DNA from: Trypanosoma brucei
Lineage: Eukaryota
Direction: 5' to 3'
NCBI GenBank assembly: GCA_000002445.1
Contig: CP000071.1
Coordinates: forward strand, 2,144,001 to 2,208,000
DNA: 64,000 nt
In this document: piece by piece, positions 44,048 to 64,000 of the stretch
Layout: each line of letters begins with the position of its first letter
Position numbering within the stretch: position 1 is the first letter of the stretch
Made by a program: the position numbers and the translations under genes
The notes under the pieces: generated by a model
Databases searched by the model: none
What the model was told of the DNA's origin: nothing
Seen by the model: the letters and a program-made list of their open reading frames with translations, nothing else

Positions 44048-44082
44048 TTCTCTCTTCCTTCTGCTTCCCTTGTGTATTCCAG
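44048..44082 (+). promoter_or_regulatory. Polypyrimidine tract plus AG immediately upstream of the adenylate cyclase start (candidate trans-splice acceptor site)
   Basis: ttctctcttccttctgcttcccttgtgtattccAG sits 18 nt before the ATG at 44100. This argues that the 5' extension in the ORF track (44034) is not coding. Confidence 0.35.
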
Positions 44083-44099
44083 GTTCCTCAAGTTGTGTT

Positions 44100-47903: not shown

Positions 47904-50318
47904 TACGCAACTTGTCACTCCAAATGAGGCCTGGAGATTGTGCTTAACCTTGTATCACCTGTTTATCTATACCATCGTCATAAATTAACCTATTTTTTTT
48001 TTTGCTTTCAACACTCTTTTTCGTGTACACGGTTGGTCAAGTGATGTTTGTTAAACCCTCTCTTTTTGTGCGGTTATTTCTGTTTTACAGTTGTTTTCCT
48101 TTTTTAAAATGACAAACGTCTCCCATTGCGCAGGTACACGTGTGAATATATACATGCATGTGTGTGTCGGCGTGTTGTTGTCCGTTTCTCCCCACCATCA
48201 CCCTCGTCCCCGTGCGCCTGCTGTTGGAGTTTTTTCTCCATTCGGGTGTTGGCATATTTGAAATGGGGAGCTGGCACGATTTATTTGTTTCTTACTTTAT
48301 ATATTTCCTACATTGTCGTGCTTGTTCGTGTTGGACTTATCCTATCGTAACTCTGTTTGCACCACGCTTACAAGGCATTTTTTCTTATACTTCGACAGGG
48401 ATAAGGTGGTAGCCAGTCTATAAAGAGACTGCAGCTATCCTTTCTTGTAACAAAAAAAAAAGAATTTATACCACCATTGGGAAACGTAACCTACTCCCAA
48501 GTGTTTCTAGTAAGTTAGATCTGTCCCTCCCATTTGCTTAAATACGAATGTAGCGTTTGTTCTTGGTATATTTTTTTTTTGCTTGCATCAGTCCTGGATG
48601 CACGTTGTCGAACAGGTTGTAGTATATAATATATGTACAAAAAGTACAACCCCCCCCCTTCCTCGGCTCGCACTGCGCTTTGGCACTATTTTTTTCCTTT
48701 TTTTAGTTGTCGTTGTTATTGTTCTGTTTTGAATAACCCCTCCCTCGTGAAACCGTTTGTACATATGCTTCCCAATAAAAGTCGATGTGGCAGCGCCTTT
48801 GTCACAAGATGAATCACATCTCATGACGTCATGGACTGCGTTAAACTTCGTTAAGATAATAGTAACCTTTCGATGGACCTTCCGCTGCAAAAGCATATCC
48901 TTTTCCCTTCTGCCCCTTCTTATGTTCTCAGGTAGCCAAAAAATGTGAGACAGGGAGTGAATACATGTGCTTCCGCTGTGTGCATGCGGGCCCATGCATG
49001 CAAACAGGTTTGTACACCTTGTGGGATCTGGTAACGAGAATAACCGGAAGATGCAGGAGGGGCACATCATGCGAATGGAGGTGTTGTTCTTTAGGGTTGA
49101 CCACACTATTTTCAGTCCTTTTCTTGCTTGCACGGTTAGCTGTTCGAGAAAATTTTCGCACCAAATGCTGCGGGTGAACAGTGATAACAGGTTTCTACAA
49201 TGCGGTGACGGATATTGACGGAACTTTTCACACCAAAGACCCCTGTCAATGCCCAACTCCACCTGCGGACGGTTACGGCGCCTAGAAAGTTGGAAAGAAA
49301 ATGAAGGGTCGCCCAGCTGCTCTGCTACCCACCATCGTAGGGGCGACAATTTGTATTCAGGTAGAACGGCAGTGAGCCACGGAGGCACAACAAGGGTTTA
49401 GAAAAGAACTTTGATTTTGCGTGCGATGTTTGCCGGTTCCAATGTAATTGATCAGTGTTTAGGGTCATGTCCACCCCCATTCGCTAGTTGTGGACGGTAA
49501 AAAGATACATGTCGCTTAACTGGCAACGTCTCTTTTATGAGCAACATGCATCACAAAAGCCGCGCACAACCGAGCGCACTGTTCACCGACGTGCGAGGTA
49601 CTCACTGTACCCATCGTTTACACTCTCACGAGCTACCCGTAAAAAACAAAACGTTTCACCGGAGTGTGATGCTGCCCAACGGCCATTTAGACACCGTAAC
49701 CTGTCAGTGCCCCCCCCCCCCGCGGTACAAGCAATTAGGTCGTAGAACGGTCACCGGAGAGCACACGGAGTGGATTGTACACATATGCGCCTATCACTTC
49801 AAGCATGAATCGTTGGAGAGGTGGTACCACCGCAGAAACGAAAATGACCAACACACGTAAACACCACTGAGCATACATTGGGATGAGTGTCATCATCTCT
49901 CGGTCGGCAGAAAGCAGTCCATTGGGTGCGGGGGAGAGGAGTACAAGGAAGGGGAAAAAAACAAAAAGAATAATCTGCAACCCGGAAATGTTGAATACAA
50001 CACGCTCATCGGATGAAATAAGGGTTGAACCGCTTATACTACAAATATACCTTCAACAGTCAACACCGAAGAGCAGGGCCTCCAAGGTATTCTAAACAGT
50101 ACATGCACTCCAATAATTATGTTCCGTCGAGGCATTTAACAATTCGCTTAGTACCACGAAAAAGTACACGGTGCCAACAGAAACGTTTAAGCCAAAACAC
50201 GCGCAAACAACAGTGTTGGTACGCAATTTTCCCCTTAACATTATTACTTTCCCCCTACCTCATATTTTCTATATCCATCAAGTGTGTAACCACAAAGACA
50301 CTTAACCACCAAAAGAAA

Positions 50319-51722
50319 ATGACCAGCATCAATGCCCAACCACCCAACTCAGCCACTTATTCTCAGGATGATCATGGCAGCGCAGAAGTTGTGAACCTAA
50401 ATGCTGAGGTGGAACGCCCACAGCCAGAGGAACGGAAAGATGGTGGTGGTTGCTTTGCCAGGGTGAGTCTATTTATGGCAACTATCATCCCACCGGGAGG
50501 TATCGCCGCAAGTGCCTTCAACATTGCATCTTCAACCATTGGTGCCGGCATTGTAGGCTTGCCTTCTGCCGCCAACAGCAGTGGGCTTGTGATGGCGATG
50601 ATTTATCTTATTATCATTACGGCAATGTCTGTGTTTACAATGCACAATCTCGCAGTGGTTGCTGATAAATCAAGTGCTCGCACGTTCGAGGAAATAACAG
50701 GCAAGTTGCTTGGGCGTGGAGCTTCATATTGTCTCGCTGGAGTTCGTGCTTTCCATGGCTTCAGTGGATGTGTGGCATATGTGATTTCTGTGGGTGATAT
50801 CCTGAGTGCTACCTTAAAGGGTACCAATGCTCCGGATTTCCTGAAGCAGAAGTCAGGCAACCACCTGCTGACATCCCTCATGTGGTTATGCTTCATGCTT
50901 CCACTTGTAATACCTCGGCACATTGACTCCCTACGTCACGTTTCAACCATTGCCGTCAGTTTCATTATCTACCTCGTCATCGTTATTGTAGTGCACTCAT
51001 GCATGAATGGGTTACCGGAAAATATCAAGAACGTCAGTGTGGGAAAGGATGACAATGCTGAGATTATATTGTTTAACAGTGGGAACAGAGCCATCGAAGG
51101 TCTTGGAGTATTCATGTTCGCTTATGTGTGCCAAGTCGTCGCAGTGGAGATATACATGGACATGACAGACCGTTCTCCGCGAAGATTTGTCCTTGCATCT
51201 GCAATTGCATTGGGTATCTGCTTCGCATTGTACGTAATGACAGCCTTCTTTGGTTACATGGACTTTGGTCGTGCTGTTACTGGCTCTGTGCTTCTGATGT
51301 ATGACCCAGTGAATGAACCTGCAATTATGGTCGGTTTCGTTGGTGTGCTCGTCAAGCTATGTGCGTCATATGCATTGCTTGGAATGGCTTGTCGCAACGG
51401 CTTGTACAGCATCGTGGGATGGGATGCCGACAAGGTTGCCTTCTGGAAGCACTGCATTGCCGTTGTTACTCTCTCTGTCGTCATGTTGTTGTGTGGCCTA
51501 TTCATCCCGAATATCAACACAGTTCTTGGGTTCGCTGGTTCCATCTCTGGTGGATCGCTGGGTTTCCTATTTCCCGCCTTATTGGTGATGTATTCCGGTG
51601 GCTTTACGTGGCAGAAGGTGGGTCCGTTTTATTATCTTACTACATACGCTGTATTACTTACAGGTGTTATTGCCATTGTATTTGGTACGGGAGCGACCAT
51701 CTGGGGAACTGCGACTGGTTAA
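50319..51722 (+). CDS. Amino acid transporter (AAT/AAAP family), array copy 1 (most divergent copy)
   Basis: 467 aa with about 11 TM helices. Conserved AAAP N-terminal block GGCFARVSLFMATIIPPGGIAASAFNI..GAGI.GLP.AANSSGLVMAMIYLIIITAM. The start is set at the MTSINAQ shared by all copies, not the upstream in-frame Met of the ORF track. Confidence 0.85.
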   Translation: MTSINAQPPNSATYSQDDHGSAEVVNLNAEVERPQPEERKDGGGCFARVSLFMATIIPPGGIAASAFNIASSTIGAGIVGLPSAANSSGLVMAMIYLIIITAMSVFTMHNLAVVADKSSARTFEEITGKLLGRGASYCLAGVRAFHGFSGCVAYVISVGDILSATLKGTNAPDFLKQKSGNHLLTSLMWLCFMLPLVIPRHIDSLRHVSTIAVSFIIYLVIVIVVHSCMNGLPENIKNVSVGKDDNAEIILFNSGNRAIEGLGVFMFAYVCQVVAVEIYMDMTDRSPRRFVLASAIALGICFALYVMTAFFGYMDFGRAVTGSVLLMYDPVNEPAIMVGFVGVLVKLCASYALLGMACRNGLYSIVGWDADKVAFWKHCIAVVTLSVVMLLCGLFIPNINTVLGFAGSISGGSLGFLFPALLVMYSGGFTWQKVGPFYYLTTYAVLLTGVIAIVFGTGATIWGTATG

Positions 51723-52884
51723 TTGGTTTATGTGTAGCATATCGGAATGTATCGTTTTAACGGGTTTATCGAGGCATGAACAGTACTATAAGTGCTGTAA
51801 AATAATATTATCATCACTATTATAGCAATGACACTGAGCGTAAACGTTACTAATAACACGGAAGTGAATGACTAGGCGACTTCTCTTTCCGCTTCACTAC
51901 TCAAAAATATAACAACACATATTTTGTTTTTCTGCTGTTTCTGACAGTATAGTCCCCAACCCCAACTGAATCGCTTCAACCCAGGTCGGTTGATGTTTTT
52001 TCCCTAGTTGGCAACGCGCTCCAACATATCTTCACTTAGTCTATGCGTGGCATCTGTAGAGTGGCTGAAACGCCTCATTGAACATCGAAATATAATAATT
52101 CTTTCGTAACTTCAATTATCTGCAAAGTGCCACAATAACTACACAGCAATAAGGGCGTCTCGATCCATCATAAAAATGGGTATTATATGCCAATACCCTC
52201 AATGGCAACAATCAAAGAAAATAACATATCGATGACGAACCGATTCCTCCCCGTCTGCATTGTGCCGGTGCCTCCTTCAACTCTACTTTATATAATCTTC
52301 TTCCCCTATCCTTTACCCCTTGTTTCTGGTCTCCAAAAGTATGCGAAAGTACACAAATAAAATAGACTGGTGTCGCAGCTATCCTGGCACAACTATTATG
52401 CTTGAGTGCACAGGCTGAGAGATAATTTTGACAAATGACTTTAGGTTTCACATGTGTAAGCAGTGGCAGTATCAGATTTGCTAACACAGTGGAGCATGAG
52501 CATGCAAGTGATTCCAATAATGTAGATCACGCGGAAAGGCTAATTGCTCTGTTATTAACTGCATTTGGTAATTGTACTAGCACCATTATGTGCTCGGAGT
52601 GAGCGTTCCATAGTACTATGGCTGTGGCAAGTTTCAGAGTGTGGGATGAGTTAACAACGATGCCAAGAACGCTGGCCGCTATTCCCTAAGATGCGTCTGC
52701 ACTGCCACCGTAGCAAGTAACGTCTCTAGGCAGTTAACCCTTATGTGTATGTGTAACACTCCGATGCTACTTCTCCACTCGCTAAGCCGTTTTGTTCCCC
52801 TCAACATTCTTACTTTCCCCTTACCTCATATTTTCTATATCCATCAAGTGTGTAACCACAAAGACACTTAACCACCAAAAGAAA

Positions 52885-54288
52885 ATGATCAGCATCAATG
52901 CCCAACCACCCAACTCAGCCACTTATCCTCGGGATGATCATGGCAGCGCAGAAGCTGGGCAAGCGAATGCTGAGGTGGAACGCCCACAGACAAAAAAACA
53001 GAAAGATGGTGGTGGTTGCTTTGCCAGGGTGAGTCTATTTATGGCAACTATCATCCCACCGGGAGGTATCGCCGCAAGTGCCTTCAACATCGGATCAACT
53101 ACCATTGGTGCCGGCATTTTTGGCTTGCCAGCAGCCGCCAACAGCAGTGGGCTTGTGATGGCGATGATTTATCTTATTATCATTACCGCCATGACTATTT
53201 TCTCCATATATGCTCTTGGTGTCGCCGCTGAAAGAACAAACATTCGTACATACGAAGGAGTTGCCCGTGCACTACTGGGTCCATGGGGTGCATTTTGCAC
53301 TGCTGCAGCCCGTACTTTCTTCTGCTTTAGTGCGTGTGTGGCATATGTGATTTCTGTGGGTGATATCCTGAGTGCTACCTTAAAGGGTACCAATGCCCCT
53401 GATTTCCTGAAGCAGAAGTCAGGCAACCGGCTATTGACATCCCTCATGTGGTTATGCTTCATGCTTCCACTTGTAATACCTCGGCACATTGACTCCCTAC
53501 GTTATGTTTCAACCATCGCATTCAGCCTCATGATATATGTTGTGGTTGTAGTGGTGGTGCACTCATGCATGAATGGGTTACCGGAAAATATCAAGAACGT
53601 CAGTGTGGGAAAGGATGACAATGCTGAGATTATATTGTTTAACAGTGGGAACAGAGCCATCGAAGGTCTTGGGGTGTTCATCTTTTCCTATCTTTTTCAT
53701 ATTACCGCGTATGAGGTCTATATGGACATGACAAACCGTTCGGTGGGTAAGTTCGTTCTGGTTGTCACCATTGCGATGGGTATGTGTCTTCCCATTTATG
53801 CACTGACAGCCTTCTTTGGTTACATGGATTTTGGTCGCAACGTTACCGGCTCTGTGCTCCTACAGTACGACCCTGTGAACTACCCAGCGATTATGGTCGG
53901 TTTCGTTGGTGTGCTCGTCAAGCTATGCGTATCGTATGCACTTTTGGGATTGGCTTGCCGCAATGCGCTGTATGATGTCATCGGGTGGGACTTCAGAGAG
54001 GTTGCTTTCTGGAAGCATTGCATTGCCGTCGTTACTCTCTCTGTCGTCATGTTGCTGTGTGGCTTATTCATCCCCAAAATCACAACCGTATTCGGATTCG
54101 CTGGTTCCATCTCTGGTGGATTGTTGGGTTTCATTCTTCCTGCGCTATTCTTCATGTATTCTGGTGGCTTTACGTGGCAAAAGGTTGGTCCCTTTTATTA
54201 CATTTCCACTTATGTTCTACTGATCACAGGTGTTATCGCAGCCGTATTTGGCACAGGTGCTACCATTTGGGCAGTTACTGTGGGATGA
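52885..54288 (+). CDS. Amino acid transporter (AAT/AAAP family), array copy 2
   Basis: 467 aa, start MISINAQPPNSATYPRDDHGSAEAGQANAEVERPQTKKQKDGGGCF. Otherwise co-linear with copies 3-5. Confidence 0.85.
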   Translation: MISINAQPPNSATYPRDDHGSAEAGQANAEVERPQTKKQKDGGGCFARVSLFMATIIPPGGIAASAFNIGSTTIGAGIFGLPAAANSSGLVMAMIYLIIITAMTIFSIYALGVAAERTNIRTYEGVARALLGPWGAFCTAAARTFFCFSACVAYVISVGDILSATLKGTNAPDFLKQKSGNRLLTSLMWLCFMLPLVIPRHIDSLRYVSTIAFSLMIYVVVVVVVHSCMNGLPENIKNVSVGKDDNAEIILFNSGNRAIEGLGVFIFSYLFHITAYEVYMDMTNRSVGKFVLVVTIAMGMCLPIYALTAFFGYMDFGRNVTGSVLLQYDPVNYPAIMVGFVGVLVKLCVSYALLGLACRNALYDVIGWDFREVAFWKHCIAVVTLSVVMLLCGLFIPKITTVFGFAGSISGGLLGFILPALFFMYSGGFTWQKVGPFYYISTYVLLITGVIAAVFGTGATIWAVTVG

Positions 54289-55289
54289 TTAGCGTAGGTT
54301 CTGCGCACAGGAATGCATTCTACAGCAAGAGGCCAGTCGCACATGTGAATTGTTACCCGAAAACGGCAGGTTAGAAATGTGATACCTGTGTAATGCAGGA
54401 GTAAAAGTGTGCTTAAGTGTTTAAAAAACGAAGAAAATTAATTTAACGTTTCTCTCACCGACAAATCGTATACCTTCTCTCATTTATCCGTTCCAACACG
54501 TATTTCAAACACGGTTCCCCTCTCCAAAACGTTATTTTATTTTGTCAATTATTTCCTTTGTTCGTGTCGACACGAGTGTTTCTCCATTTAGGAAGGGAAT
54601 TTCAAGTGCGAAGAGGGGACATTGTGTTATATTTACTTTCTTTCCATCCTTCGTACACTATTTTTTCTTTGTAACGCCCTCCCTATCCGTATTATTTTAT
54701 TTTTTTAATGGTTGTGCGTGAAGTACAACTGCTTAACGAAAAGCGCTTGTAGGGCCGGTGGGTAATTATTTTCTACATATTTTGTTGTATGCTCCCTAAT
54801 ATACTACAGAAACATTAGCAGCTGCCCACAAAGGTAGTTGTTGTAAGCTTCTGTCGCATAGTATCTCTTTCGTCTCTTTCTTCTTGCTTAAGATGTACAT
54901 AAAGGATTCTTGATACATGCTACCACGTTGTGCAAACCAAATAACACTAATGGAACAGGGGCACTATCAGATTTGCTAACACAGTGGAGCATGAGCATGC
55001 AAGTGATTCCAATGATGCAGATCACGCGGAAAGGCTAATTGCTCTGTTATTAACTGCATTTGGTAATTGTACTAGCACCATTATGTGCTCGGAGTGAGCG
55101 TTCCATAGTACTATGGCTGTGGCAAGTTTCAGAGTGTGGGATGAGTTAACAACGATGCCAAGAACGCTGGCCGCTATTCCCTAAGATGCGTCTGCACTGC
55201 CACCGTAGCAAGTAACGTCTCTAGGCAGTTAACCCTTATGTGTATGTGTAACACTCCGATGCTACTTCTCCACTCGCTAAGCCGTTTTG

Positions 55290-55350
55290 TTCCCCTTAAC
55301 ATTATTACTTTCCCCCTACCTCATATTTTCTATATCCATCAAGTGTATAA
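55290..55350 (+). promoter_or_regulatory. Conserved polypyrimidine tract upstream of each transporter copy (candidate trans-splice acceptor region); the same element recurs at about 50227-50280, 52795-52855, 58015-58075, 60740-60800 and 63465-63525
   Basis: ccccttaacattattactttccccctacctcatattttctatatccatcAAG lies about 30-90 nt upstream of every transporter ATG and is conserved in all six units. Confidence 0.4.
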
Positions 55351-55379
55351 CCACAAAGACACTTAACCACCAAAAGAAA

Positions 55380-56783
55380 ATGACCAGCATCAATGCCCAA
55401 CCACCCAACTCAGCCACTTATCCTCAGGATGATCATGGCAGCGCAGAAGTTGTGAACCTAAATGCTGAGGTGGAACGCCCACAGCCAGAGGAACAGAAAG
55501 ATGGTGGTGGTTGCTTTGCCAGGGTGAGTCTATTTATGGCAACTATCATCCCACCGGGAGGTATCGCCGCAAGTGCCTTCAACATCGGATCAACTACCGT
55601 CGGTGCCGGCATTTTTGGCTTGCCAGCAGCCGCCAACAGCAGTGGGCTTGTGATGGCGATGATTTATCTTATTATCATTACCGCCATGACTATTTTCTCC
55701 ATATATGCTCTTGGTGTCGCCGCTGAAAGAACAAACATTCGTACATACGAAGGAGTTGCCCGTGCACTACTGGGTCCATGGGGTGCATATTACACCGCTG
55801 CAACCCGCGCCTTCTTCAGTTTCAGTGCATGTGTGGCATATGTGATTTCTGTGGGTGATATCCTGAGTGCTACCTTAAAGGGTACCAATGCCCCTGATTT
55901 CCTGAAGCAGAAGTCAGGCAACCGGCTATTGACATCCCTCATGTGGTTATGCTTCATGCTTCCACTTGTAATACCTCGGCACATTGACTCCCTACGTCAC
56001 GTTTCAACCATCGCGTTCATCCTCATGATTTACATGGTGCTTGTAGTGGTGGTGCATTCATGCATGAATGGGTTACCGGAAAATATCAAGAACGTCAGTG
56101 TGGGAAAGGATGACAATGCTGAGATTATACTGTTTAACAGTGGGAACAGAGCCATCGAAGGTCTTGGAGTGTTCATCTTTTCCTATCTTTTTCAGATTAC
56201 CGCGTATGAGGTCTATATGGACATGACAAACCGTTCGGTGGGTAAGTTCGTTCTGGTTGTCACCATTGCGATGGGTATGTGTCTTCCCATGTATGCACTG
56301 ACAGCCTTCTTTGGTTACATGGATTTTGGTCGCAACGTTACCGGCTCTGTGCTCCTACAGTACGACCCTGTGAACTACCCAGCAGTTATGGTCGGTTTCG
56401 TTGGTGTGCTCGTGATGTTGTTCGTATCGTATGCACTTTTGGGATTGGCTTGCCGCAATGCGCTGTATGATGTCATCGGGTGGGACTTCAGAGAGGTTGC
56501 TTTCTGGAAGCATTGCATTGCCGTCGTTACTCTCTCTATCGTCATGTTGCTGTGTGGCTTATTCATCCCCAAAATCACAACTGTGCTGGGATTCGCTGGT
56601 TCTTTCTGTGGTGGGTCGCTGGGTTTCATTCTTCCTGCGCTATTCTTCATGTATTCTGGTGGCTTTACGTGGCAAAAGGTTGGTCCCTTTTATTACATTT
56701 CCACTTATGTTCTACTGATCACAGGTGTTATCGCAGCCGTATTTGGCACAGGTGCTACCATTTGGGCAGTTACTGTGGGATGA
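55380..56783 (+). CDS. Amino acid transporter (AAT/AAAP family), array copy 3
   Basis: 467 aa. Differs from copy 4 by about one residue (I/V), and the nucleotide sequence is over 99% identical including the flanks. Confidence 0.85.
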   Translation: MTSINAQPPNSATYPQDDHGSAEVVNLNAEVERPQPEEQKDGGGCFARVSLFMATIIPPGGIAASAFNIGSTTVGAGIFGLPAAANSSGLVMAMIYLIIITAMTIFSIYALGVAAERTNIRTYEGVARALLGPWGAYYTAATRAFFSFSACVAYVISVGDILSATLKGTNAPDFLKQKSGNRLLTSLMWLCFMLPLVIPRHIDSLRHVSTIAFILMIYMVLVVVVHSCMNGLPENIKNVSVGKDDNAEIILFNSGNRAIEGLGVFIFSYLFQITAYEVYMDMTNRSVGKFVLVVTIAMGMCLPMYALTAFFGYMDFGRNVTGSVLLQYDPVNYPAVMVGFVGVLVMLFVSYALLGLACRNALYDVIGWDFREVAFWKHCIAVVTLSIVMLLCGLFIPKITTVLGFAGSFCGGSLGFILPALFFMYSGGFTWQKVGPFYYISTYVLLITGVIAAVFGTGATIWAVTVG

Positions 56784-58104
56784 TTAGCGTAGGTTCTGCG
56801 CACAGGAATGCATTCTACAGCAAGAGGCCAGTCGCACATGTGAATTGTTACCCGAAAACGGCAGGTTAGAAATGTGATACCTGTGTAATGCAGGAATAAA
56901 AGTGTGCTTAAGTGTTTAAAAAACGAAGAAAATTAATTTAACGTTTCTCTCACCGACAAATCGTATACCTTCTCTCATTTATCCGTTCCAACACGTATTT
57001 CAAGCGCGGTTCCCCTCTCCAAAACGTTATTTTATTTTGTCAATTATTTCCTTTGTTCGTGTCGATACGAATGTTTCTCCATTTAGGAAAGGAATGTAAG
57101 ACGCAAACGGGGGTTATTGTGGTAGAATTGGTTTCTTTTCGTCTTTTACCTTTTTTTTGTATTTTTTATTGTCTGCTCAACAGCAATGCTTGAAGTACAA
57201 CTGCTTAACGAAAAGCGCCTGTAGGGCCGGTGGGTAATTATTTTCTACATATTTTGTTGTATGCTACTTAATATGCGACAGAAACATTAACAGCAGCTCG
57301 CAAAGGTAGTTGTTGTAAGCTTCTGTCGCATAGTATCTCTTTCATCTTTTCCTTCTTCCTTAAGATGTACATAAAGGATTCTTGATACATGCTACCACGT
57401 TGTGCAAACCAAATAACACTAATGAACCAAAGCAGTGGCTACTATTTTTCAATACTAAATCGATTCCTCCCCGTCTGCATTGTGCCGGTGCCTCCTTCAA
57501 CTCTACTTTATATAATCTTCTTCCCCTATCCTTTACCCCTTGTTTCTGGTCTCCAAAAGTATGCGAAAGTACACAAATAAAATAGACTGGTGTCGCAGCC
57601 ATCCTGGCACAACTATTATCCTTGAGTGCACAGGCTGAGAGATAATTTTGACAAATGACTTTAGGTTTCACATGTGTAAGCAGTGGCAGTATCAGATTTG
57701 CTAACACAGTGGAGCATGAGCATGCAAGTGATTCCAATAATGTAGATCACGCGGAAAGGCTAATTGCTCTGTTATTAACTGCATTTGGTAATTGTACTAG
57801 CACCATTATGTGCTCGGAGTGAGCGTTCCATAGTACTATGGCTGTGGCAAGTTTCAGAGTGTGGGATGAGTTAACAACGATGCCAAGAACGCTGGCCGCT
57901 ATTCCCTAAGATGCGTCTGCACTGCCACCGTAGCAAGTAACGTCTCTAGGCAGTTAACCCTTATGTGTATGTGTAACACTCCGATGCTACTTCTCCACTC
58001 GCTAAGCCGTTTTGTTCCCCTTAACATTATTACTTTCCCCCTACCTCATATTTTCTATATCCATCAAGTGTATAACCACAAAGACACTTAACCACCAAAA
58101 GAAA

Positions 58105-59508
58105 ATGACCAGCATCAATGCCCAACCACCCAACTCAGCCACTTATCCTCAGGATGATCATGGCAGCGCAGAAGTTGTGAACCTAAATGCTGAGGTGGAA
58201 CGCCCACAGCCAGAGGAACAGAAAGATGGTGGTGGTTGCTTTGCCAGGGTGAGTTTATTTATGGCAACTATCATCCCACCGGGAGGTATCGCCGCAAGTG
58301 CCTTCAACATCGGATCAACTACCGTCGGTGCCGGCATTTTTGGCTTGCCAGCAGCCGCCAACAGCAGTGGGCTTGTGATGGCGATGATTTATCTTATTAT
58401 CATTACCGCCATGACTATTTTCTCCATATATGCTCTTGGTGTCGCCGCTGAAAGAACAAACATTCGTACATACGAAGGAGTTGCCCGTGCACTACTGGGT
58501 CCATGGGGTGCATATTACACCGCTGCAACCCGCGCCTTCTTCAGTTTCAGTGCATGTGTGGCATATGTGATTTCTGTGGGTGATATCCTGAGTGCTACCT
58601 TAAAGGGTACCAATGCCCCTGATTTCCTGAAGCAGAAGTCAGGCAACCGGCTATTGACATCCCTCATGTGGTTATGCTTCATGCTTCCACTTGTAATACC
58701 TCGGCACATTGACTCCCTACGTCACGTTTCAACCATCGCGTTCATCCTCATGATTTACATGGTGCTTGTAGTGGTGGTGCATTCATGCATGAATGGGTTA
58801 CCGGAAAATATCAAGAACGTCAGTGTGGGAAAGGATGACAATGCTGAGATTATATTGTTTAACAGTGGGAACAGAGCCATCGAAGGTCTTGGGGTGTTCA
58901 TCTTTTCCTATCTTTTTCAGATTACCGCGTATGAGGTCTATATGGACATGACAAACCGTTCGGTGGGTAAGTTCGTTCTGGTTGTCACCATTGCGATGGG
59001 TATGTGTCTTCCCATGTATGCACTGACAGCCTTCTTTGGTTACATGGATTTTGGTCGCAACGTTACCGGCTCTGTGCTCCTACAGTACGACCCTGTGAAC
59101 TACCCAGCAGTTATGGTCGGTTTCGTTGGTGTGCTCGTGATGTTGTTCGTATCGTATGCACTTTTGGGATTGGCTTGCCGCAATGCGCTGTATGATGTCA
59201 TCGGGTGGGACTTCAGAGAGGTTGCTTTCTGGAAGCATTGCATTGCCGTCGTTACTCTCTCTGTCGTCATGTTGCTGTGTGGCTTATTCATCCCCAAAAT
59301 CACAACTGTGCTGGGATTCGCTGGTTCTTTCTGTGGTGGGTCGCTGGGTTTCATTCTTCCTGCGCTATTCTTCATGTATTCTGGTGGCTTTACGTGGCAA
59401 AAGGTTGGTCCCTTTTATTACATTTCCACTTATGTTCTACTGATCACAGGTGTTATCGCAGCCGTATTTGGCACAGGTGCTACCATTTGGGCAGTTACTG
59501 TGGGATGA
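58105..59508 (+). CDS. Amino acid transporter (AAT/AAAP family), array copy 4
   Basis: 467 aa. See copy 3. Confidence 0.85.
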   Translation: MTSINAQPPNSATYPQDDHGSAEVVNLNAEVERPQPEEQKDGGGCFARVSLFMATIIPPGGIAASAFNIGSTTVGAGIFGLPAAANSSGLVMAMIYLIIITAMTIFSIYALGVAAERTNIRTYEGVARALLGPWGAYYTAATRAFFSFSACVAYVISVGDILSATLKGTNAPDFLKQKSGNRLLTSLMWLCFMLPLVIPRHIDSLRHVSTIAFILMIYMVLVVVVHSCMNGLPENIKNVSVGKDDNAEIILFNSGNRAIEGLGVFIFSYLFQITAYEVYMDMTNRSVGKFVLVVTIAMGMCLPMYALTAFFGYMDFGRNVTGSVLLQYDPVNYPAVMVGFVGVLVMLFVSYALLGLACRNALYDVIGWDFREVAFWKHCIAVVTLSVVMLLCGLFIPKITTVLGFAGSFCGGSLGFILPALFFMYSGGFTWQKVGPFYYISTYVLLITGVIAAVFGTGATIWAVTVG

Positions 59509-60829
59509 TTAGCGTAGGTTCTGCGCACAGGAATGCATTCTACAGCAAGAGGCCAGTCGCACATGTGAATTGTTACCCGAAAACGGCAGGTTAGAAATGT
59601 GATACCTGTGTAATGCAGGAATAAAAGTGTGCTTAAGTGTTTAAAAAACGAAGAAAATTAATTTAACGTTTCTCTCACCGACAAATCGTATACCTTCTCT
59701 CATTTATCCGTTCCAACACGTATTTCAAACACGGTTCCCCTCTCCAAAACGTTATTTTATTTTGTCAATTATTTCCTTTGTTCGTGTCGATACGAATGTT
59801 TCTCCATTTAGGAAAGGAATGTAAGACGCAAACGGGGGTTATTGTGGTAGAATTGGTTTCTTTTCGTCTTTTACCTTTTTTTTGTATTTTTTATTGTCTG
59901 CTCAACAGCAATGCGTGAAGTACAACTGCTTAACGAAAAGCGCCTGTAGGGCCGGTGGGTAATTATTTTCTACATATTTTGTTGTATGCTACTTAATATG
60001 CGACAGAAACATTAACAGCAGCTCGCAAAGGTAGTTGTTGTAAGCTTCTGTCGCATAGTATCTCTTTCATCTTTTCCTTCTTCCTTAAGATGTACATAAA
60101 GGATTCTTGATACATGCTACCACGTTGTGCAAACCAAATAACACTAATGAACCAAAGCAGTGGCTACTATTTTTCAATACTAAATCGATTCCTCCCCGTC
60201 TGCATTGTGCCGGTGCCTCCTTCAACTCTACTTTATATAATCTTCTTCCCCTATCCTTTACCCCTTGTTTCTGGTCTCCAAAAGTATGCGAAAGTACACA
60301 AATAAAATAGACTGGTGTCGCAGCCATCCTGGCACAACTATTATCCTTGAGTGCACAGGCTGAGAGATAATTTTGACAAATGACTTTAGGTTTCACATGT
60401 GTAAGCAGTGGCAGTATCAGATTTGCTAACACAGTGGAGCATGAGCATGCAAGTGATTCCAATGATGCAGATCACGCGGAAAGGCTAATTGCTCTGTTAT
60501 TAACTGCATTTGGTAATTGTACTAGCACCATTATGTGCTCGGAGTGAGCGTTCCATAGTACTATGGCTGTGGCAAGTTTCAGAGTGTGGGATGAGTTAAC
60601 AACGATGCCAAGAACGCTGGCCGCTATTCCCTAAGATGCGTCTGCACTGCCACCGTGGCAAGTAACGTCTCTAGGCAGTTAACCCTTATGTGTATGTGTA
60701 ACACTCCGATGCTACTTCTCCACTCGCTAAGCCGTTTTGTTCCCCTTAACATTATTACTTTCCCCCTACCTCATATTTTCTATATCCATCAAGTGTATAA
60801 CCACAAAGACACTTAACCACCAAAAGAAA

Positions 60830-62233
60830 ATGACCAGCATCAAGACCAAGTCGCCAACGTCAGTCACTTATCCTCAGGATGATCATGGCAGCGCAGAAGC
60901 TGGGCAAGCGAATGCTGAGGTGGAACGCCCACAGCCAGAGGAACGGAAAGATGGTGGTGGTTGCTTTGCCAGGGTGAGTTTATTTATGGCAACTATCATC
61001 CCACCGGGAGGTATCGCCGCAAGTGCCTTCAACATCGGATCAACTACCATTGGTGCCGGCATTTTTGGCTTGCCAGCAGCCGCCAACAGCAGTGGGCTTG
61101 TGATGGCGATGATTTATCTTATTATCATTACCGCCATGACTATTTTCTCCATATATGCTCTTGGTGTCGCCGCTGAAAGAACAAACATTCGTACATACGA
61201 AGGAGTTGCCCGTGCACTACTGGGTCCATGGGGTGCATTTTGCACTGCTGCAGCCCGTACTTTCTTCAGTTTCAGTGCATGTGTGGCATATGTGATTTCT
61301 GTGGGTGATATCCTGAGTGCTACCTTAAAGGGTACCAATGCTCCGGATTTCCTGAAGCAGAAGTCAGGCAACCGGCTATTGACATCCCTCATGTGGTTAT
61401 GCTTCATGCTTCCACTTGTAATACCTCGGCACATTGACTCCCTACGTCACGTTTCAACCATCGCGTTTATCCTCATGATTTATACTGTGGTTGTAGTGGT
61501 GGTGCATTCATGCATGAATGGGTTACCGGAAAATATCAAGAACGTCAGTGTGGGAAAGGATGACAATGCTGAGATTATACTGTTTAACAGTGGGAACAGA
61601 GCCATCGAAGGTCTTGGGGTGTTCATCTTTTCCTATCTTTTTCATATTACCGCGTATGAGGTCTATATGGACATGACAAACCGTTCGGTGGGTAAGTTCG
61701 TTCTGGTTGTCATCATTGCGATGGGTATGTGTCTTCCCATGTATGCACTGACAGCCTTCTTTGGTTACATGGATTTTGGTCGCAACGTTACCGGCTCTGT
61801 GCTCCTACAGTACGACCCTGTGAACTACCCAGCGATTATGGTCGGTTTCGTTGGTGTGCTCGTGATGTTGTTCGTATCGTATGCACTTTTGGGATTGGCT
61901 TGCCGCAATGCGCTGTATGATGTCATCGGGTGGGACTTCAGAGAGGTTGCTTTCTGGAAGCATTGCATTGCCGTCGTTACTCTCTCTGTCGTCATGTTGC
62001 TGTGTGGCTTATTCATCCCCAAAATCACAACTGTGCTGGGATTCGCTGGATCTTTCTGTGGTGGATTGTTGGGTTTCATTCTTCCTGCGCTATTCTTCAT
62101 GTATTCTGGTGGCTTTACGTGGCAAAAGGTTGGTCCCTTTTATTACATTTCCACTTATGTTCTACTGATCACAGGTGTTATCGCAGCCGTATTTGGCACA
62201 GGTGCTACCATTTGGGCAGTTACTGTGGGATGA
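60830..62233 (+). CDS. Amino acid transporter (AAT/AAAP family), array copy 5 (variant N-terminus MTSIKTKSPTSVTYP)
   Basis: 467 aa. The N-terminal 15 residues differ from copies 1-4. The middle of the protein mixes copy-2-like (AFCTAAARTFF) and copy-3/4-like (ILMIY.V) blocks. Confidence 0.85.
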   Translation: MTSIKTKSPTSVTYPQDDHGSAEAGQANAEVERPQPEERKDGGGCFARVSLFMATIIPPGGIAASAFNIGSTTIGAGIFGLPAAANSSGLVMAMIYLIIITAMTIFSIYALGVAAERTNIRTYEGVARALLGPWGAFCTAAARTFFSFSACVAYVISVGDILSATLKGTNAPDFLKQKSGNRLLTSLMWLCFMLPLVIPRHIDSLRHVSTIAFILMIYTVVVVVVHSCMNGLPENIKNVSVGKDDNAEIILFNSGNRAIEGLGVFIFSYLFHITAYEVYMDMTNRSVGKFVLVVIIAMGMCLPMYALTAFFGYMDFGRNVTGSVLLQYDPVNYPAIMVGFVGVLVMLFVSYALLGLACRNALYDVIGWDFREVAFWKHCIAVVTLSVVMLLCGLFIPKITTVLGFAGSFCGGLLGFILPALFFMYSGGFTWQKVGPFYYISTYVLLITGVIAAVFGTGATIWAVTVG

Positions 62234-63554
62234 TTAGCGTAGGTTCTGCGCACAGGAATGCATTCTACAGCAAGAGGCCAGTCGCACATGTGAATTGTTA
62301 CCCGAAAACGGCAGGTTAGAAATGTGATGCCTGTGTAATGCAGGAATAAAAGTGTGCTTAAGTGTTTAAAAAACGAAGAAAATTAATTTAACGTTTCTCT
62401 CACCGACAAATCGTATACCTTCTCTCATTCGTTCGCTCCAACACGTATTTCAAGCGCGGTTCCCCTCTCCAAAACGTTATTTTATTTTGTCAATTATTTC
62501 CTTTGTTCGTGTCGATACGAATGTTTCTCCATTTAGGAAAGGAATGTAAGACGCAAACGGGGGTTATTGTGGTAGAATTGGTTTCTTTTCGTCTTTTACC
62601 TTTTTTTTGTATTTTTTATTGTCTGCTCAACAGCAATGCTTGAAGTACAACTGCTTAACGAAAAGCGCCTGTAGGGCCGGTGGGTAATTATTTTCTACAT
62701 ATTTTGTTGTATGCTACTTAATATGCGACAGAAACATTAACATCTGCCCACAAAGGTAGTTGTTGTAAGCTTCTGTCGCATAGTATCTCTTTCATCTTTT
62801 CCTTCTTCCTTAAGATGTACATAAAGGATTCTTGATACATGCTACCACGTTGTGCAAACCAAATAACACTAATGAACCAAAGCAGTGGCTACTATTTTTC
62901 AATACTAAATCGATTCCTCCCCGTCTGCATTGTGCCGGTGCCTCCTTCAACTCTACTTTATATAATCTTCTTCCCCTATCCTTTACCCCTTGTTTCTGGT
63001 CTCCAAAAGTATGCGAAAGTACACAAATAAAATAGACTGGTGTCGCAGCCATCCTGGCACAACTATTATCCTTGAGTGCACAGGCTGAGAGATAATTTTG
63101 ACAAATGACTTTAGGTTTCACATGTGTAAGCAGTGGCAGTATCAGATTTGCTAACACAGTGGAGCATGAGCATGCAAGTGATTCCAATGATGCAGATCAC
63201 GCGGAAAGGCTAATTGCTCTGTTATTAACTGCATTTGGTAATTGTACTAGCACCATTATGTGCTCGGAGTGAGCGTTCCATAGTACTATGGCTGTGGCAA
63301 GTTTCAGAGTGTGGGATGAGTTAACAACGATGCCAAGAACGCTGGCCGCTATTCCCTAAGATGCGTCTGCACTGCCACCGTAGCAAGTAACGTCTCTAGG
63401 CAGTTAACCCTTATGTGTATGTGTAACACTCCGATGCTACTTCTCCACTCGCTAAGCCGTTTTGTTCCCCTTAACATTATTACTTTCCCCCTACCTCATA
63501 TTTTCTATATCCATCAAGTGTATAACCACAAAGACACTTAACCACCAAAAGAAA

Positions 63555-64000
63555 ATGACCAGCATCAAGACCAAGTCGCCAACGTCAGTCACTTATCCTC
63601 GGAATGATCATGGCAGCGCAGAAGTTGTGAACCCAAATCCTGAGGCACCCCTTTCCCAAAATGAACTAAAGAATAGTGGTGGTTGCTTTGCCAGGGTGAG
63701 TTTATTTATGGCAACTATCATCCCACCGGGAGGTATCGCCGCAAGCGCCTTCAACATTGCCGCTTCATCTGTTGGTGCCGGTATCATTGGCTTGCCTTCT
63801 GCCGCCAACAGCAGTGGGCTTGTGATGGCGATGATTTATCTTATTATCATTACGGCAATGTCTGTGTTTACAATGCACAATCTCGCAGTGGTTGCTGATA
63901 AGACTAATGTGTACACGTACGAAGGAGTTGCCCGTGTCCTGCTGGGTCGCTGGGGTAAGTACTACGTAGCTGTGGTTCGTGCTTTCCATGGCTTTAGTGC
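63555..64000 (+). CDS. Amino acid transporter (AAT/AAAP family), array copy 6, 5' fragment truncated by window end
   Basis: Starts MTSIKTKSPTSVTYPRNDHGSAEVVNPNPEAPLSQNELKNSGGCFARVSLF. The region after TM2 (LAVVADKTNVYTYEGVARVLLGRWGKYYVAVVRAFHGFS) resembles copy 1 rather than copies 2-5. Confidence 0.8.
   Translation, partial: MTSIKTKSPTSVTYPRNDHGSAEVVNPNPEAPLSQNELKNSGGCFARVSLFMATIIPPGGIAASAFNIAASSVGAGIIGLPSAANSSGLVMAMIYLIIITAMSVFTMHNLAVVADKTNVYTYEGVARVLLGRWGKYYVAVVRAFHGFS

What the first reader, a model, noticed from the sequence alone, without database searches (positions are those of the whole stretch)
50220..64000. Mosaic tandem array of amino-acid transporter paralogues: gene-conversion blocks, two N-terminal types, near-identical middle units
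Six head-to-tail AAAP transporter genes share over 90% identity but differ in discrete blocks.

(i) N-terminus: copies 1-4 have MT(I)SINAQPPNSATYP, copies 5-6 have MTSIKTKSPTSVTYP.

(ii) The TM2-TM4 region has two very different versions. Copy 1 reads LAVVADKSSARTFEEITGKLLGRGASYCLAGVRAFHGFSGC and the partial copy 6 reads LAVVADKTNVYTYEGVARVLLGRWGKYYVAVVRAFHGFS. Copies 2-5 read LGVAAERTNIRTYEGVARALLGPWGA...

(iii) Small patches (AFCTAAARTFFC/S versus AYYTAATRAFFS; ISGG versus FCGG; KLCVSYA versus MLFVSYA) assort independently among copies.

This patchwork is the signature of repeated gene conversion and unequal crossing-over. The first and last visible copies share the divergent block, so the array may be bounded by, or periodically contain, a second transporter isoform with different substrate specificity. 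Copies 3 and 4 are near-identical over 2.7 kb, which also makes assembly collapse or expansion likely.
Basis: seen in the sequence. Interest (0 to 1): 0.55.

Follow-up and report, generated by a model that had tools for sequence, protein, structure and literature searches.

The report
Trypanosoma brucei AAT7 transporter gene array
This is the first half of the AAT7 tandem array of amino-acid transporter genes on Trypanosoma brucei chromosome 8; its patchwork of exchanged sequence blocks is real, but it was already described and tested in papers from 2007, 2010 and 2021.

Summary
The array is real. Six head-to-tail Aa_trans (PF01490) genes start at 50319, 52885, 55380, 58105, 60830 and 63555; the last is cut by the window end.

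Copies 2-5 are residue-for-residue identical to XP_847590-XP_847593 of T. b. brucei TREU927. These are the AAT7-B proline/alanine transporters, assigned by gene order to Tb927.8.7610-7640. Copies 1 and 6 are the AAT7-A isoform (7600 and 7650).

The statement "over 90% identity" holds only for copies 2-5. Copy 1 is about 80% identical in nucleotides and 77% in amino acids to them.

The mosaic is statistically solid. Between copy 1 and copy 3, the proportion of synonymous differences alternates between 0.02-0.10 and 0.6-0.9 in discrete blocks. Permutation tests give p<0.0002. Informative sites support incompatible groupings. The same blocks recur in two independent assemblies.

Gene conversion plus unequal crossing-over is therefore supported. 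However, Jackson 2007 listed these events for this array, including 1-206 into copy 1 and 1-49 into copy 5. Jackson et al. 2010 reported PHI, LRT and GARD results for it. Haindrich et al. 2021 defined the A, B and C isoforms and their transport function.

One small refinement: block-wise trees show that the A/B split predates the T. brucei/T. congolense divergence.

The finding is correct but already known.

The parts
44034..47903 (+). Flanking gene upstream of the array: a receptor-type adenylate cyclase (GRESAG4-like). It serves as the synteny anchor.
   Evidence: Pfam hits to Peripla_BP_A-cyclase and Guanylate_cyc. The same gene sits upstream of the array in T. b. gambiense and T. b. equiperdum.
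50229..50318 (+). The 5' edge of the repeat unit. These are the last 90 nt of the common upstream spacer, a polypyrimidine-rich leader that probably holds the splice-acceptor region and the 5' UTR.
   Evidence: C1 and C3 differ at 1 position within 90 nt of the ATG and are unrelated beyond that. The functional assignment is an inference.
50319..51722 (+). C1, the AAT7-A isoform (position of Tb927.8.7600), 467 aa.
   Evidence: It differs at 6 aa from the T. b. gambiense protein P0003. Subgroup assignment follows PMC8094907.
50319..50524 (+). Block of C1 (CDS nt 1-206) that is homogenised with the B-type copies C3 and C4.
   Evidence: 99% identity in the first 200 nt; three differences from C3 in nt 1-207, pS 0.02. 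It corresponds to the GENECONV event '1-206, donor 3, recipient 1, p=1.5e-17' in Jackson 2007.
50619..50768 (+). Isoform-defining divergent block of C1 (CDS nt 301-450; end of TM2 to first half of TM3).
   Evidence: 66 differences in 150 nt and pS 0.78 against the B copies. In the combined divergent blocks (aa 101-150, 211-226, 264-343), the T. congolense copy Tco_4 is 73% identical to C1 but only 47-51% to B.
50769..50948 (+). Second homogenised block of C1 (CDS nt 451-630).
   Evidence: pS 0.06-0.12. It overlaps Jackson's event '548-629, donor 4, recipient 1'.
50997..51107 (+). Third homogenised block of C1 (CDS nt 679-789).
   Evidence: One or two synonymous and no non-synonymous differences from C2, C3 and C5. 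Divergence among the A, A' and B groups here is about 1%, against about 40% to the C type.
51723..52212 (+). A-type-specific 3' flank (presumed 3' UTR) of C1. It does not align with the B-type 3' flanks.
   Evidence: It is unique within the window. A 99% identical copy follows the first A gene and the last A' gene in the T. b. gambiense and T. b. equiperdum loci.
52213..52884 (+). Common upstream spacer block of about 670 nt. It is shared, at 94-100% identity, by the regions upstream of C2-C6.
52885..54288 (+). C2, AAT7-B. Identical to XP_847590 and assigned by order to Tb927.8.7610, the published high-affinity proline/alanine transporter.
   Evidence: Exact protein match. Published primers match. 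Km of about 17.5 uM is from PMC8094907.
54289..55379 (+). Spacer after C2 (1091 nt). It is B-type but has a divergent patch and a deletion of about 230 nt relative to the later spacers.
55380..56783 (+). C3, AAT7-B. Identical to XP_847591 (Tb927.8.7620 by order).
56784..58104 (+). Spacer after C3 (1321 nt). It contains the B-type 3' flank followed by the common upstream block.
58105..59508 (+). C4, AAT7-B. Identical to XP_847592 (Tb927.8.7630 by order). Its unit differs from the C3 unit at 10 of 2725 nt.
   Evidence: At 3 of the 4 CDS sites and all 6 spacer sites where C3 and C4 differ, both variants occur in at least one other copy.
59509..60829 (+). Spacer after C4 (1321 nt).
60830..62233 (+). 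C5, AAT7-B. Identical to XP_847593 (Tb927.8.7640 by order).
60844..60864 (+). N-terminal tract in C5 (CDS nt 15-35, 10 substitutions, peptide IKTKSPTSV). It is identical to the same stretch in C6.
   Evidence: The positional counterpart in T. b. equiperdum (Teq_B3) lacks it, while an A' copy there has it. It matches Jackson's event '1-49, donor 8, recipient 5'.
52955..52965 (+). Patch at CDS nt 71-81 (peptide AGQA versus VVNL). C2 and C5 share one version (C5: 60900-60910); C1, C3 and C4 share the other.
   Evidence: Seven sites with pattern 01001.
53919..53927 (+). Patch at CDS nt 1035-1043 (KLC in C1 and C2; MLF in C3-C5). Five of nine nucleotides differ, two of them synonymous changes.
   Evidence: K346 is Lys in 42 of 44 other homologues.
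62234..63554 (+). Spacer after C5 (1321 nt). It is B-type throughout, even though the next gene is A-type.
63555..64000 (+). C6, the partial A'-type gene (position of Tb927.8.7650), cut by the window end. It carries a 3-nt deletion and is itself a mosaic of C5-like, C1-like and B-like segments.
   Evidence: It matches the 466-aa A' genes of T. b. equiperdum and T. b. gambiense.

Best explanation
The region is the 5' half of the AAT7 locus of Trypanosoma brucei brucei TREU927 chromosome 8. This locus is a tandem array, 11 genes long in the reference genome, of AAAP-family (LeuT-fold) plasma-membrane amino-acid transporters. It lies inside a single polycistronic transcription unit.

The array holds old, functionally distinct isoforms:
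- AAT7-A: C1 and C6. Their substrate was not stated in the passages read.
- AAT7-B: C2-C5, the proline/alanine/cysteine transporters. C2 is the high-affinity form and C3-C5 are low-affinity forms.

Misaligned homologous recombination between neighbouring units has two effects. Unequal crossing-over changes the number of copies. Short gene-conversion tracts of about 10-200 nt copy segments between paralogues.

The outcome is a patchwork. Some blocks are nearly identical in all A and B copies of T. brucei: the 90-nt leader plus CDS nt 1-206, nt 451-630 and nt 679-789. The isoform-defining blocks stay highly diverged: TM2-TM3, part of TM5, and TM6 onwards. Selection on function probably keeps them apart.

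What is shown here: the identity of the locus, the block structure, the discontinuity at synonymous sites, the conflict between block-wise trees, and the copy-number differences between assemblies.

What is inferred: the molecular mechanism (conversion versus double crossover), the direction of individual events, and selection as the force that preserves the divergent blocks.
For: IDENTITY OF THE LOCUS
- The C2-C5 proteins are exactly XP_847590 to XP_847593 of TREU927, in the same order.
- The published AAT7-B ORF, qPCR and RNAi primers match C2-C5.
- Pfam Aa_trans hits score E=1e-40.
- The AlphaFold2 model (pLDDT 83, pTM 0.81) is closest to AUX1, LAX3 and SLC38A9.
- An adenylate cyclase gene lies upstream here and in T. 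b. gambiense and T. b. equiperdum.

EXCHANGE OF SEQUENCE
- pS alternates between 0.02-0.10 and 0.6-0.9 in discrete blocks.
- Differences are strongly clustered: variance/mean ratio 4.1 against a permutation maximum of 1.5.
- Concordant runs of polymorphic sites give p<=0.0002 for 7 of 10 pairs.
- Informative sites give incompatible partitions, 14 against 11 sites.
- Block-wise bootstrap trees disagree. In the divergent blocks the trans-species A and B clades are recovered 164 and 178 times out of 200, and species clades 0 times. In the homogenised blocks, species clades are recovered 192-197 times out of 200.
- Short internal tracts have recipient-type sequence on both sides. Examples are C5 nt 15-35, which matches C6, and C2 nt 1035-1043, which matches the A types.

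UNEQUAL CROSSING-OVER
- B-type units number 4 in TREU927, 3 in T. b. equiperdum, and 1 plus a multi-breakpoint chimera plus an orphan 3' CDS fragment in T. b. gambiense.
- The type of 3' flank is uncoupled from the type of CDS.

LITERATURE
- Jackson 2007, Jackson et al. 2010 and Haindrich et al. 2021.
Against: - Donors could not be identified for every patch, because the window ends inside C6. Some three-state sites (pattern 01222, 7 sites) have no donor within the window.
- The MLF and FCGG states of C3-C5 have no donor in any T. brucei array copy examined. These patches may be ancestral B states rather than conversion tracts.
- Gene identifiers (Tb927.8.76xx) were assigned from gene order and published descriptions. 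They were not looked up directly in TriTrypDB.
- The near-identical C3/C4 pair could be two alleles that the assembly placed in tandem.
Confidence: 0.93

Rival explanations
1. The blocks reflect uneven purifying selection along the protein, with conserved and variable segments. No sequence has been exchanged between copies.
For: Two of the near-identical blocks encode well-conserved segments, TM4 and the loop before TM6. Family-wide alignments also show conservation there.
Against: - Synonymous sites show the same discontinuity: pS 0.02-0.10 against 0.6-0.9.
- Clustering persists when only third codon positions are used.
- In the 'conserved' blocks, T. brucei A and B are 98-99% identical to each other but only 76-81% identical to every T. 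congolense copy. The near-identity is therefore recent and species-specific.
Confidence: 0.02
2. The mosaic is an assembly artefact. Reads from near-identical repeats, or from two haplotypes, were joined into chimeric copies, and the copy number is wrong.
For: - Tandem arrays are hard to assemble, as Jackson 2007 notes.
- C3 and C4 differ at only 10 of 2725 nt.
- Lister 427_2018 lacks a copy of 7620, and T. b. equiperdum has 3 B units.
Against: - The main blocks are reproduced at the corresponding positions in two independent assemblies, T. b. gambiense DAL972 and T. b. equiperdum. These include the B-like 5' end of C1, most of the C2-specific patches, and the A' deletion.
- An independently cloned gene, AATP1 (CAC86544), is also a B-type mosaic.
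- At 3 of the 4 CDS sites and all 6 spacer sites where C3 and C4 differ, both variants are also found in at least one other copy, so most of the differences are not random errors.
- The artefact explanation can therefore apply to the copy number only, not to the mosaic.
Confidence: 0.1
3. Only unequal crossing-over has acted, through single reciprocal exchanges between misaligned units. Non-reciprocal gene conversion is not involved.
For: - Copy number varies between subspecies.
- 3' flank types are swapped relative to CDS types.
- The T. b. gambiense locus has a chimera followed by an orphan CDS fragment.
Against: - Many tracts are very short (9-50 nt) and internal, with recipient-type sequence on both sides.
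- Each such tract would need two closely spaced crossovers without a change in unit length.
- Units 3, 4 and 5 are all exactly 2725 nt.
- Conversion is the simpler explanation. Both processes probably operate.
Confidence: 0.05

Closest known systems
AAT7 locus of T. brucei (Tb927.8.7600-7700; AATP1 genes), as described by Jackson 2007 (BMC Evol Biol 7:26), Jackson et al. 2010 (PLoS NTD 4:e658, array 80) and Haindrich et al. 2021 (JBC 296:100566)
   Same: It is the same locus. The proteins are exact matches. The upstream neighbour is the same. The A and B isoforms are the same. The conversion events are the same: 1-206 into copy 1, 548-629 into copy 1, and 1-49 into copy 5.
   Different: Nothing essential differs. 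The window shows only 5.3 of the 11 genes. My block-wise comparison with T. congolense adds that the A/B split is trans-specific, which whole-gene trees had not resolved.
AAT4 locus on T. brucei chromosome 4 (Tb927.4.4820, six copies)
   Same: It is the paralogous array created by the chromosome 4/8 block duplication. Two sequence types alternate along it, and a short conversion tract has been documented.
   Different: It is a different chromosome and a different set of genes. It was not examined here.
Other variable tandem arrays in T. brucei (ISG65, BARP, GRESAG4, adenosine and hexose transporters)
   Same: They show the same genome-wide behaviour. Subspecies-specific sequence mosaics were found in 31 of 35 arrays. 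In moderately variable arrays, variation was typically greater in coding regions than in non-coding parts, and the terminal spacers are curtailed.
   Different: They belong to different gene families. AAT7 is one of the more recombinant arrays, with 14 LRT breakpoints.
AAAP / SLC32-36-38 / AUX1-LAX transporters (LeuT fold)
   Same: The genes hit Pfam Aa_trans. The model has 11 transmembrane helices with broken TM1 and TM6. The best structural matches are LAX3, AUX1 and SLC38A9, with TM-scores of 0.63-0.70 normalised to the query.
   Different: Sequence identity to the solved structures is only 13-17%, and there is no sequence-level PDB hit. Substrates are known experimentally only for the B copies.

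Membership tests
AAAP (amino acid/auxin permease) family, Pfam PF01490 | A significant match to the Aa_trans profile over the whole membrane domain. | tested here: met
   C1 scores E=1.2e-41 and C3 scores E=8.3e-40, covering profile positions 6-409 of 410. The C6 fragment scores E=4e-12.
AAAP (amino acid/auxin permease) family, Pfam PF01490 | A LeuT-type fold with about 11 transmembrane helices and unwound TM1 and TM6. | tested here: met
   The AlphaFold2 model has pLDDT 83 and pTM 0.81, with helix breaks at residues 74-75 and 270-271. Top Foldseek hits are LAX3, AUX1 and SLC38A9 with probability 1.00.
AAAP (amino acid/auxin permease) family, Pfam PF01490 | Demonstrated amino-acid transport. 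| not testable with these tools
   This comes from the literature only. [quoted passage not shown] No data for the A-type C1 and C6 were given in the passages read.
T. brucei AAT7 locus (Tb927.8.7600-7700) | Gene products identical to the annotated TREU927 proteins, in the same order. | tested here: met
   C2, C3, C4 and C5 equal XP_847590, XP_847591, XP_847592 and XP_847593 with no mismatches. C1 is not in the collection as an exact sequence, but it differs at only 6 aa from the T. b. gambiense first-copy protein.
T. brucei AAT7 locus (Tb927.8.7600-7700) | Positional criterion of Jackson 2007: the same surrounding gene order. | tested here: met
   The adenylate cyclase gene plus 2.3 kb of unique spacer upstream of the first copy are 97-99% identical in the T. 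b. gambiense and T. b. equiperdum chromosome 8 loci.
T. brucei AAT7 locus (Tb927.8.7600-7700) | Eleven copies comprising the A, B and C subgroups. | tested here: inconclusive
   The window ends inside the sixth gene. A and B types are visible. The C type (487-546 aa) is seen only in the comparative loci L001 and L002.
Gene conversion / concerted evolution in a tandem array | Differences between paralogues fall in discrete blocks rather than being spread uniformly. | tested here: met
   (variance/mean ratio 4.1 against a permutation maximum of 1.5).
Gene conversion / concerted evolution in a tandem array | The discontinuity also holds at synonymous sites, which excludes protein-level constraint. 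| tested here: met
   pS is 0.02-0.10 in the homogenised blocks and 0.6-0.9 in the divergent blocks.
Gene conversion / concerted evolution in a tandem array | Phylogenetic incongruence between adjacent segments. | tested here: met
   Incompatible partitions of informative sites and conflicting bootstrap support between blocks.
Gene conversion / concerted evolution in a tandem array | Transfer is non-reciprocal, which distinguishes conversion from double crossover. | not testable with these tools
   This needs population or pedigree data, or all array copies from several strains.

The most novel reading that the evidence does not exclude
The A and B isoforms of AAT7 are older than the split between T. 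brucei and T. congolense. Their isoform-defining blocks (TM2-TM3, part of TM5, TM6-TM7) are trans-specific orthologues that resist homogenisation. In the intervening blocks, T. brucei, but not T. congolense, has homogenised A with B. Published whole-gene trees hid this, because they grouped all T. congolense copies apart from TbAAT7-A and -B.

A more speculative extension concerns the high-affinity proline transporter 7610 (C2). It carries the A-type states Lys346/Cys348 and Ile409/Ser410 on a B backbone. T. congolense B-like copies, like the low-affinity C3-C5, have Met346 and Phe348. Short conversion tracts may therefore have created the roughly 40-fold difference in affinity.
Probability: 0.55. 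Interest if true: 0.3.

Novelty: already known. Interest (0 to 1): 0.12.

Why it matters
The locus itself matters. The AAT7-B genes are described by Haindrich et al. as the main proline transporters of the insect-stage parasite and are essential when proline is limiting (PMC8094907). The array is also a clear example of how trypanosomes, which lack gene-specific promoters, combine gene dosage with isoform diversity.

All of this is already published, so the finding adds no new biology. Its practical value is as a caution: reads, peptides, RNAi and CRISPR reagents cannot be assigned unambiguously to single copies, and the copy number in the reference genome should not be trusted without long reads.

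The one modest addition is the block-wise evidence that the A/B split is ancient. It comes with a short list of candidate affinity-determining residues for mutagenesis: K346M, C348F, I409F and S410C.

Tried and rejected
- Tandem Repeats Finder found nothing, because its longest period is 500 nt and the unit is about 2.7 kb. The repeat finder and my own alignments were used instead.
- The look-up of encoding contigs returned nothing for the TREU927 proteins. The rest of the TREU927 array (7650-7700) therefore could not be fetched. The T. b. equiperdum, T. b. gambiense and T. congolense loci served as proxies.
- A sequence search of the PDB gave no hit. Fold comparison was needed.
- I looked for a donor of the MLF and FCGG patches of C3-C5 among all the T. 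brucei array copies fetched and among 74 homologues. There was none in T. brucei, and MLF occurs only in T. congolense B-like copies. I therefore dropped the idea that these patches are recent conversion tracts or ectopic conversions.
- I considered whether the pre-array region or the rest of the window holds AAT fragments or pseudogenes that mark the array edge. There are none.
- The bacterial promoter/terminator scan of a spacer is irrelevant for a trypanosome and showed nothing.
- Explanations based only on selection or only on assembly error were rejected (see the rival explanations).

Full report
WHAT IS THERE

The region holds six head-to-tail coding sequences on the + strand:
- C1 50319-51722
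- C2 52885-54288
- C3 55380-56783
- C4 58105-59508
- C5 60830-62233
- C6 63555 to the window end, with 148 codons visible

The five complete genes are each 467 codons. ATG-to-ATG spacing is 2566, 2495, 2725, 2725 and 2725 nt. Every copy matches Pfam Aa_trans (PF01490): C1 and C3 at E of about 1e-40 over the whole profile, and the C6 fragment at E of 4e-12.

An AlphaFold2 model of C3 (pLDDT 83, pTM 0.81) shows an N-terminal disordered tail of 44 residues and 11 transmembrane helices, with broken TM1 and TM6. Its best structural matches are the AAAP and LeuT-fold transporters LAX3, AUX1 and SLC38A9.

Upstream lies a receptor-type adenylate cyclase gene at 44034-47903. Apart from two antisense ORFs, all ORFs of 250 codons or more in the rest of the window are on the + strand. 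This is what one expects of a trypanosomatid polycistronic unit.

WHERE IT COMES FROM

The proteins of C2, C3, C4 and C5 are residue-for-residue identical to XP_847590, XP_847591, XP_847592 and XP_847593. All four are 'amino acid transporter 1, putative' on the 2,481,190-bp chromosome of T. brucei brucei TREU927.

The primers that Haindrich et al. 2021 used to clone, quantify and knock down Tb927.8.7610/7630/7640 match C2-C5. The qPCR, RNAi and reverse ORF primers match all four copies exactly. The forward ORF primer matches C2 with one mismatch and does not match C5.

That paper divides the 11-gene AAT7 locus of TREU927 into three subgroups:
- AAT7-A: 7600, 7650 and 7670
- AAT7-B: 7610 to 7640
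- AAT7-C: 7680 and 7700

Two further genes are pseudogenes. By order and sequence type, C1 is therefore 7600 (A), C2-C5 are 7610-7640 (B), and C6 is 7650 (A). The gene identifiers are assigned by order. I could not query TriTrypDB.

CHECKING THE OBSERVATION

Most of it holds.
- The two N-terminal types, the three quoted TM-region peptides and the small patches are all present.
- C3 and C4 units differ at 10 of 2725 nt.
- The unit's 5' edge is at 50229, 90 nt before the C1 ATG, at the start of a polypyrimidine tract.

Three points need correction.
- First, 'over 90% identity' is true only within C2-C5 (95.9-99.7% nt). C1 is about 80% nt and 77% aa identical to them. Its first 490 nt after the stop codon do not align with the B-type flanks.
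- Second, C1 and C6 do not share one block. Within CDS nt 301-446, C6 is identical to C1 at nt 301-330, closer to the B copies over about nt 361-420, and closer to C1 again at nt 421-446. Its first 30 nt are identical to C5. Its divergent patch at about nt 91-120, with a 3-nt deletion, is shared by the A' genes of the other subspecies.
- Third, the variable block (aa 104-150) covers the second half of TM2, a loop helix and the first half of TM3. It does not reach TM4.

IS THE PATCHWORK REAL EXCHANGE?

Yes. Differences between C1 and C3 are strongly clustered:
- nt 1-207: 3 differences
- nt 301-450: 66 differences
- nt 451-630: 6 differences
- nt 631-678: 18 differences
- nt 679-789: 1 difference
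- the remainder: a steady 20-30%

Synonymous sites follow the same pattern. The proportion of synonymous differences (pS) is 0.02, 0.78, 0.10, 0.88, 0.04 and 0.60 for these six segments. Protein-level constraint cannot be the cause.

The variance/mean ratio of differences per 30-nt bin is 4.1, against a maximum of 1.5 in 5000 permutations. Third codon positions alone give 2.1 against 1.3. A GENECONV-style permutation of polymorphic sites gives p<=0.0002 for 7 of 10 pairs.

Among C2-C5, the 76 variable sites are equally clustered, with a ratio of 4.2. The parsimony-informative sites support incompatible groupings: 14 sites for {C2,C5} and 11 sites for {C1,C2}.

C3-C5 differ more in coding sequence than in their spacers. 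There are 45 differences in 1404 nt of CDS against 11 in 1321 nt of spacer (Fisher p=9e-6). This fits tracts imported from diverged paralogues that share homology only within the CDS.

COMPARATIVE LOCI

I fetched the homologous loci of T. b. gambiense DAL972 (L002), T. b. equiperdum (L001, L003, L004) and T. congolense IL3000 (L005, L006).

The layouts are as follows:
- TREU927: cyclase, A, B, B, B, B, A', then beyond the window
- T. b. equiperdum: cyclase, A, B, B, B, A', A', C, C. In that assembly the A copy and the first B copy are interrupted by premature stops.
- T. b. gambiense: cyclase, A, B, a chimera, an orphan 3' CDS fragment of a B gene, A', C

The T. b. gambiense chimera is B2-like over nt 1-789, A'-like over 790-1030, B1-like over 1031-1250 and A-like over 1251-1404.

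Positional counterparts share the older blocks, for example the B-like 5' end of C1 and most of the C2-specific patches. Other blocks are lineage-specific. The IKTKSPTSV tract of C5 is absent from its T. b. equiperdum counterpart but present in an A' copy there.

These results rule out assembly chimerism as the origin of the mosaic. They also show that copy number really varies, or is at least assembled differently, between strains. The type of 3' flank is uncoupled from the type of CDS, which points to crossovers inside the genes.

MECHANISM

The best explanation is misaligned homologous recombination within the array. Unequal crossing-over changes copy number and shuffles the flanks. Short non-reciprocal conversion tracts of roughly 10-200 nt move segments between paralogues.

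Three blocks are homogenised between A and B in T. brucei: the 90-nt leader plus nt 1-206, nt 451-630 and nt 679-789. The other blocks remain distinct.

Function is known for the B genes. The Lister 427 versions expressed in yeast transport proline, alanine and cysteine. 7610 has a Km of about 17.5 uM and 7620-7640 about 600-1000 uM. [quoted passage not shown]

A and B differ at many positions in TM1, TM3, TM6 and TM8. In LeuT-fold transporters these helices line the substrate site; that is general knowledge, not something tested here. A different substrate or affinity for the A type is therefore plausible but untested.

WHAT IS ALREADY PUBLISHED

- Jackson 2007 (PMC1810246) defined AAT7Tb as Tb927.8.7600 with 11 copies, equivalent to AATP1. 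It noted 'frequent exchange of sequence motifs'. It listed GENECONV/SISCAN events that coincide with mine: 1-206 (donor 3, recipient 1, p=1.5e-17), 548-629 (donor 4, recipient 1) and 1-49 (donor 8, recipient 5). It discussed unequal crossing-over, conversion and the collapse of arrays in assemblies.
- Jackson 2007b (PMC1855330) reported, for T. brucei tandem arrays in general, that in moderately variable arrays variation is typically greater in coding regions than in non-coding parts, that CDS and UTR histories disagree, and that terminal spacers are curtailed.
- Jackson et al. 2010 (PMC2854126) tested this array as number 80. They found 10 annotated copies in T. b. brucei against 5 in T. b. 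gambiense, PHI p<0.001, 14 LRT breakpoints and at least 5 GARD breakpoints. Their heading was 'subspecies-specific sequence mosaics'.

A SMALL REFINEMENT

Block-wise comparison with the eight genes on the T. congolense contig separates two kinds of block.

In the divergent blocks (aa 101-150, 211-226, 264-343):
- Copy Tco_4 is 73% identical to C1, but 47-51% identical to the B copies and 52-59% identical to its own A/B-type neighbours (42% to the two C-type genes).
- Copies Tco_1, 2, 6 and 7 are B-like.

In the homogenised blocks (aa 151-210, 227-263):
- T. brucei A and B are 98-99% identical to each other.
- They are 76-81% identical to all non-C T. congolense copies.

Bootstrap NJ trees support trans-species A and B clades in the divergent blocks, recovered 164 and 178 times out of 200, with species clades recovered 0 times. 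In the homogenised blocks the reverse holds, with species clades recovered 192-197 times out of 200. The whole protein gives an ambiguous result.

The A/B split therefore appears to predate the T. brucei/T. congolense divergence. This nuances the published statement that T. congolense copies form a group separate from TbAAT7-A and -B.

Lys346 in TM8 is Lys in 42 of 44 other homologues. It is Met in the low-affinity C3-C5 and in T. congolense B-like copies, while the high-affinity C2 has the A-type Lys346/Cys348 and Ile409/Ser410. These residues are candidates for the affinity difference. This is a hypothesis only.

VERDICT

- Novelty: already known.
- Interest: low.

Noticed in passing
window 26847-29233 (within + strand ORF 25670-29254): There are 27.4 in-frame copies of an 87-nt (29-aa) tandem repeat at 97% identity, inside a 1194-codon ORF with no Pfam match. 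The repeat also creates a spurious 879-codon antisense ORF at 26591-29230.
   Followed up: partly
window 1-50300: Fifteen of the 17 ORFs of 250 codons or more are on the + strand; the other two are antisense ORFs. Those with Pfam matches are a cation-efflux protein (3937-5409), a WD40 protein (6481-8193), an M1 peptidase (21847-23802), a CorA-like protein (33998-35692), a dihydrouridine synthase (37057-38691), a RINGv protein (39282-41903) and the adenylate cyclase. This is consistent with a single polycistronic unit running into the array.
   Followed up: partly
window 56415-56423, 59140-59148 and 61865-61873 (C3-C5 codons 346-348); 53919-53927 in C2: The low-affinity copies C3-C5 have Met346/Phe348 in TM8, where 42 of 44 other trypanosomatid homologues have Lys and 36 of 44 have Cys. 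The high-affinity C2 keeps Lys and Cys. T. congolense B-like copies also have Met and Phe, so this dimorphism looks ancient.
   Followed up: partly
L002 10001-11754 (T. b. gambiense DAL972 chromosome 8): A four-segment B/A'/B/A chimeric transporter gene is followed directly by an orphan 319-nt fragment of a B-type CDS 3' end. This looks like a footprint of unequal recombination in that subspecies.
   Followed up: partly
L004 4941-6342 and 7506-8909 (T. b. equiperdum GCA_003543875.1): In this assembly the counterparts of C1 and C2 carry a frameshift (stop at codon 175) and a premature stop at codon 14, respectively. They are either real pseudogenes or consensus errors in the assembly.
   Followed up: no
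window 60830-60874 and 63555-63599 (N-termini of C5 and C6): The IKTKSPTSV N-terminal type contains T6, S8 and T10. These are listed as phosphorylated residues for the 'Tb927.8.7610' peptide group in PMC13524880. The INAQPPNSA type lacks these residues, so the exchanged N-terminal tract may carry different phospho-acceptor sites.
   Followed up: no
window 54289-55379 compared with 56784-58104: The spacer after C2, the copy published as more highly expressed in bloodstream forms, differs from the spacers after C3-C5. It has a divergent patch of about 150 nt and a deletion of about 230 nt. This may be relevant to copy-specific mRNA regulation.
   Followed up: no
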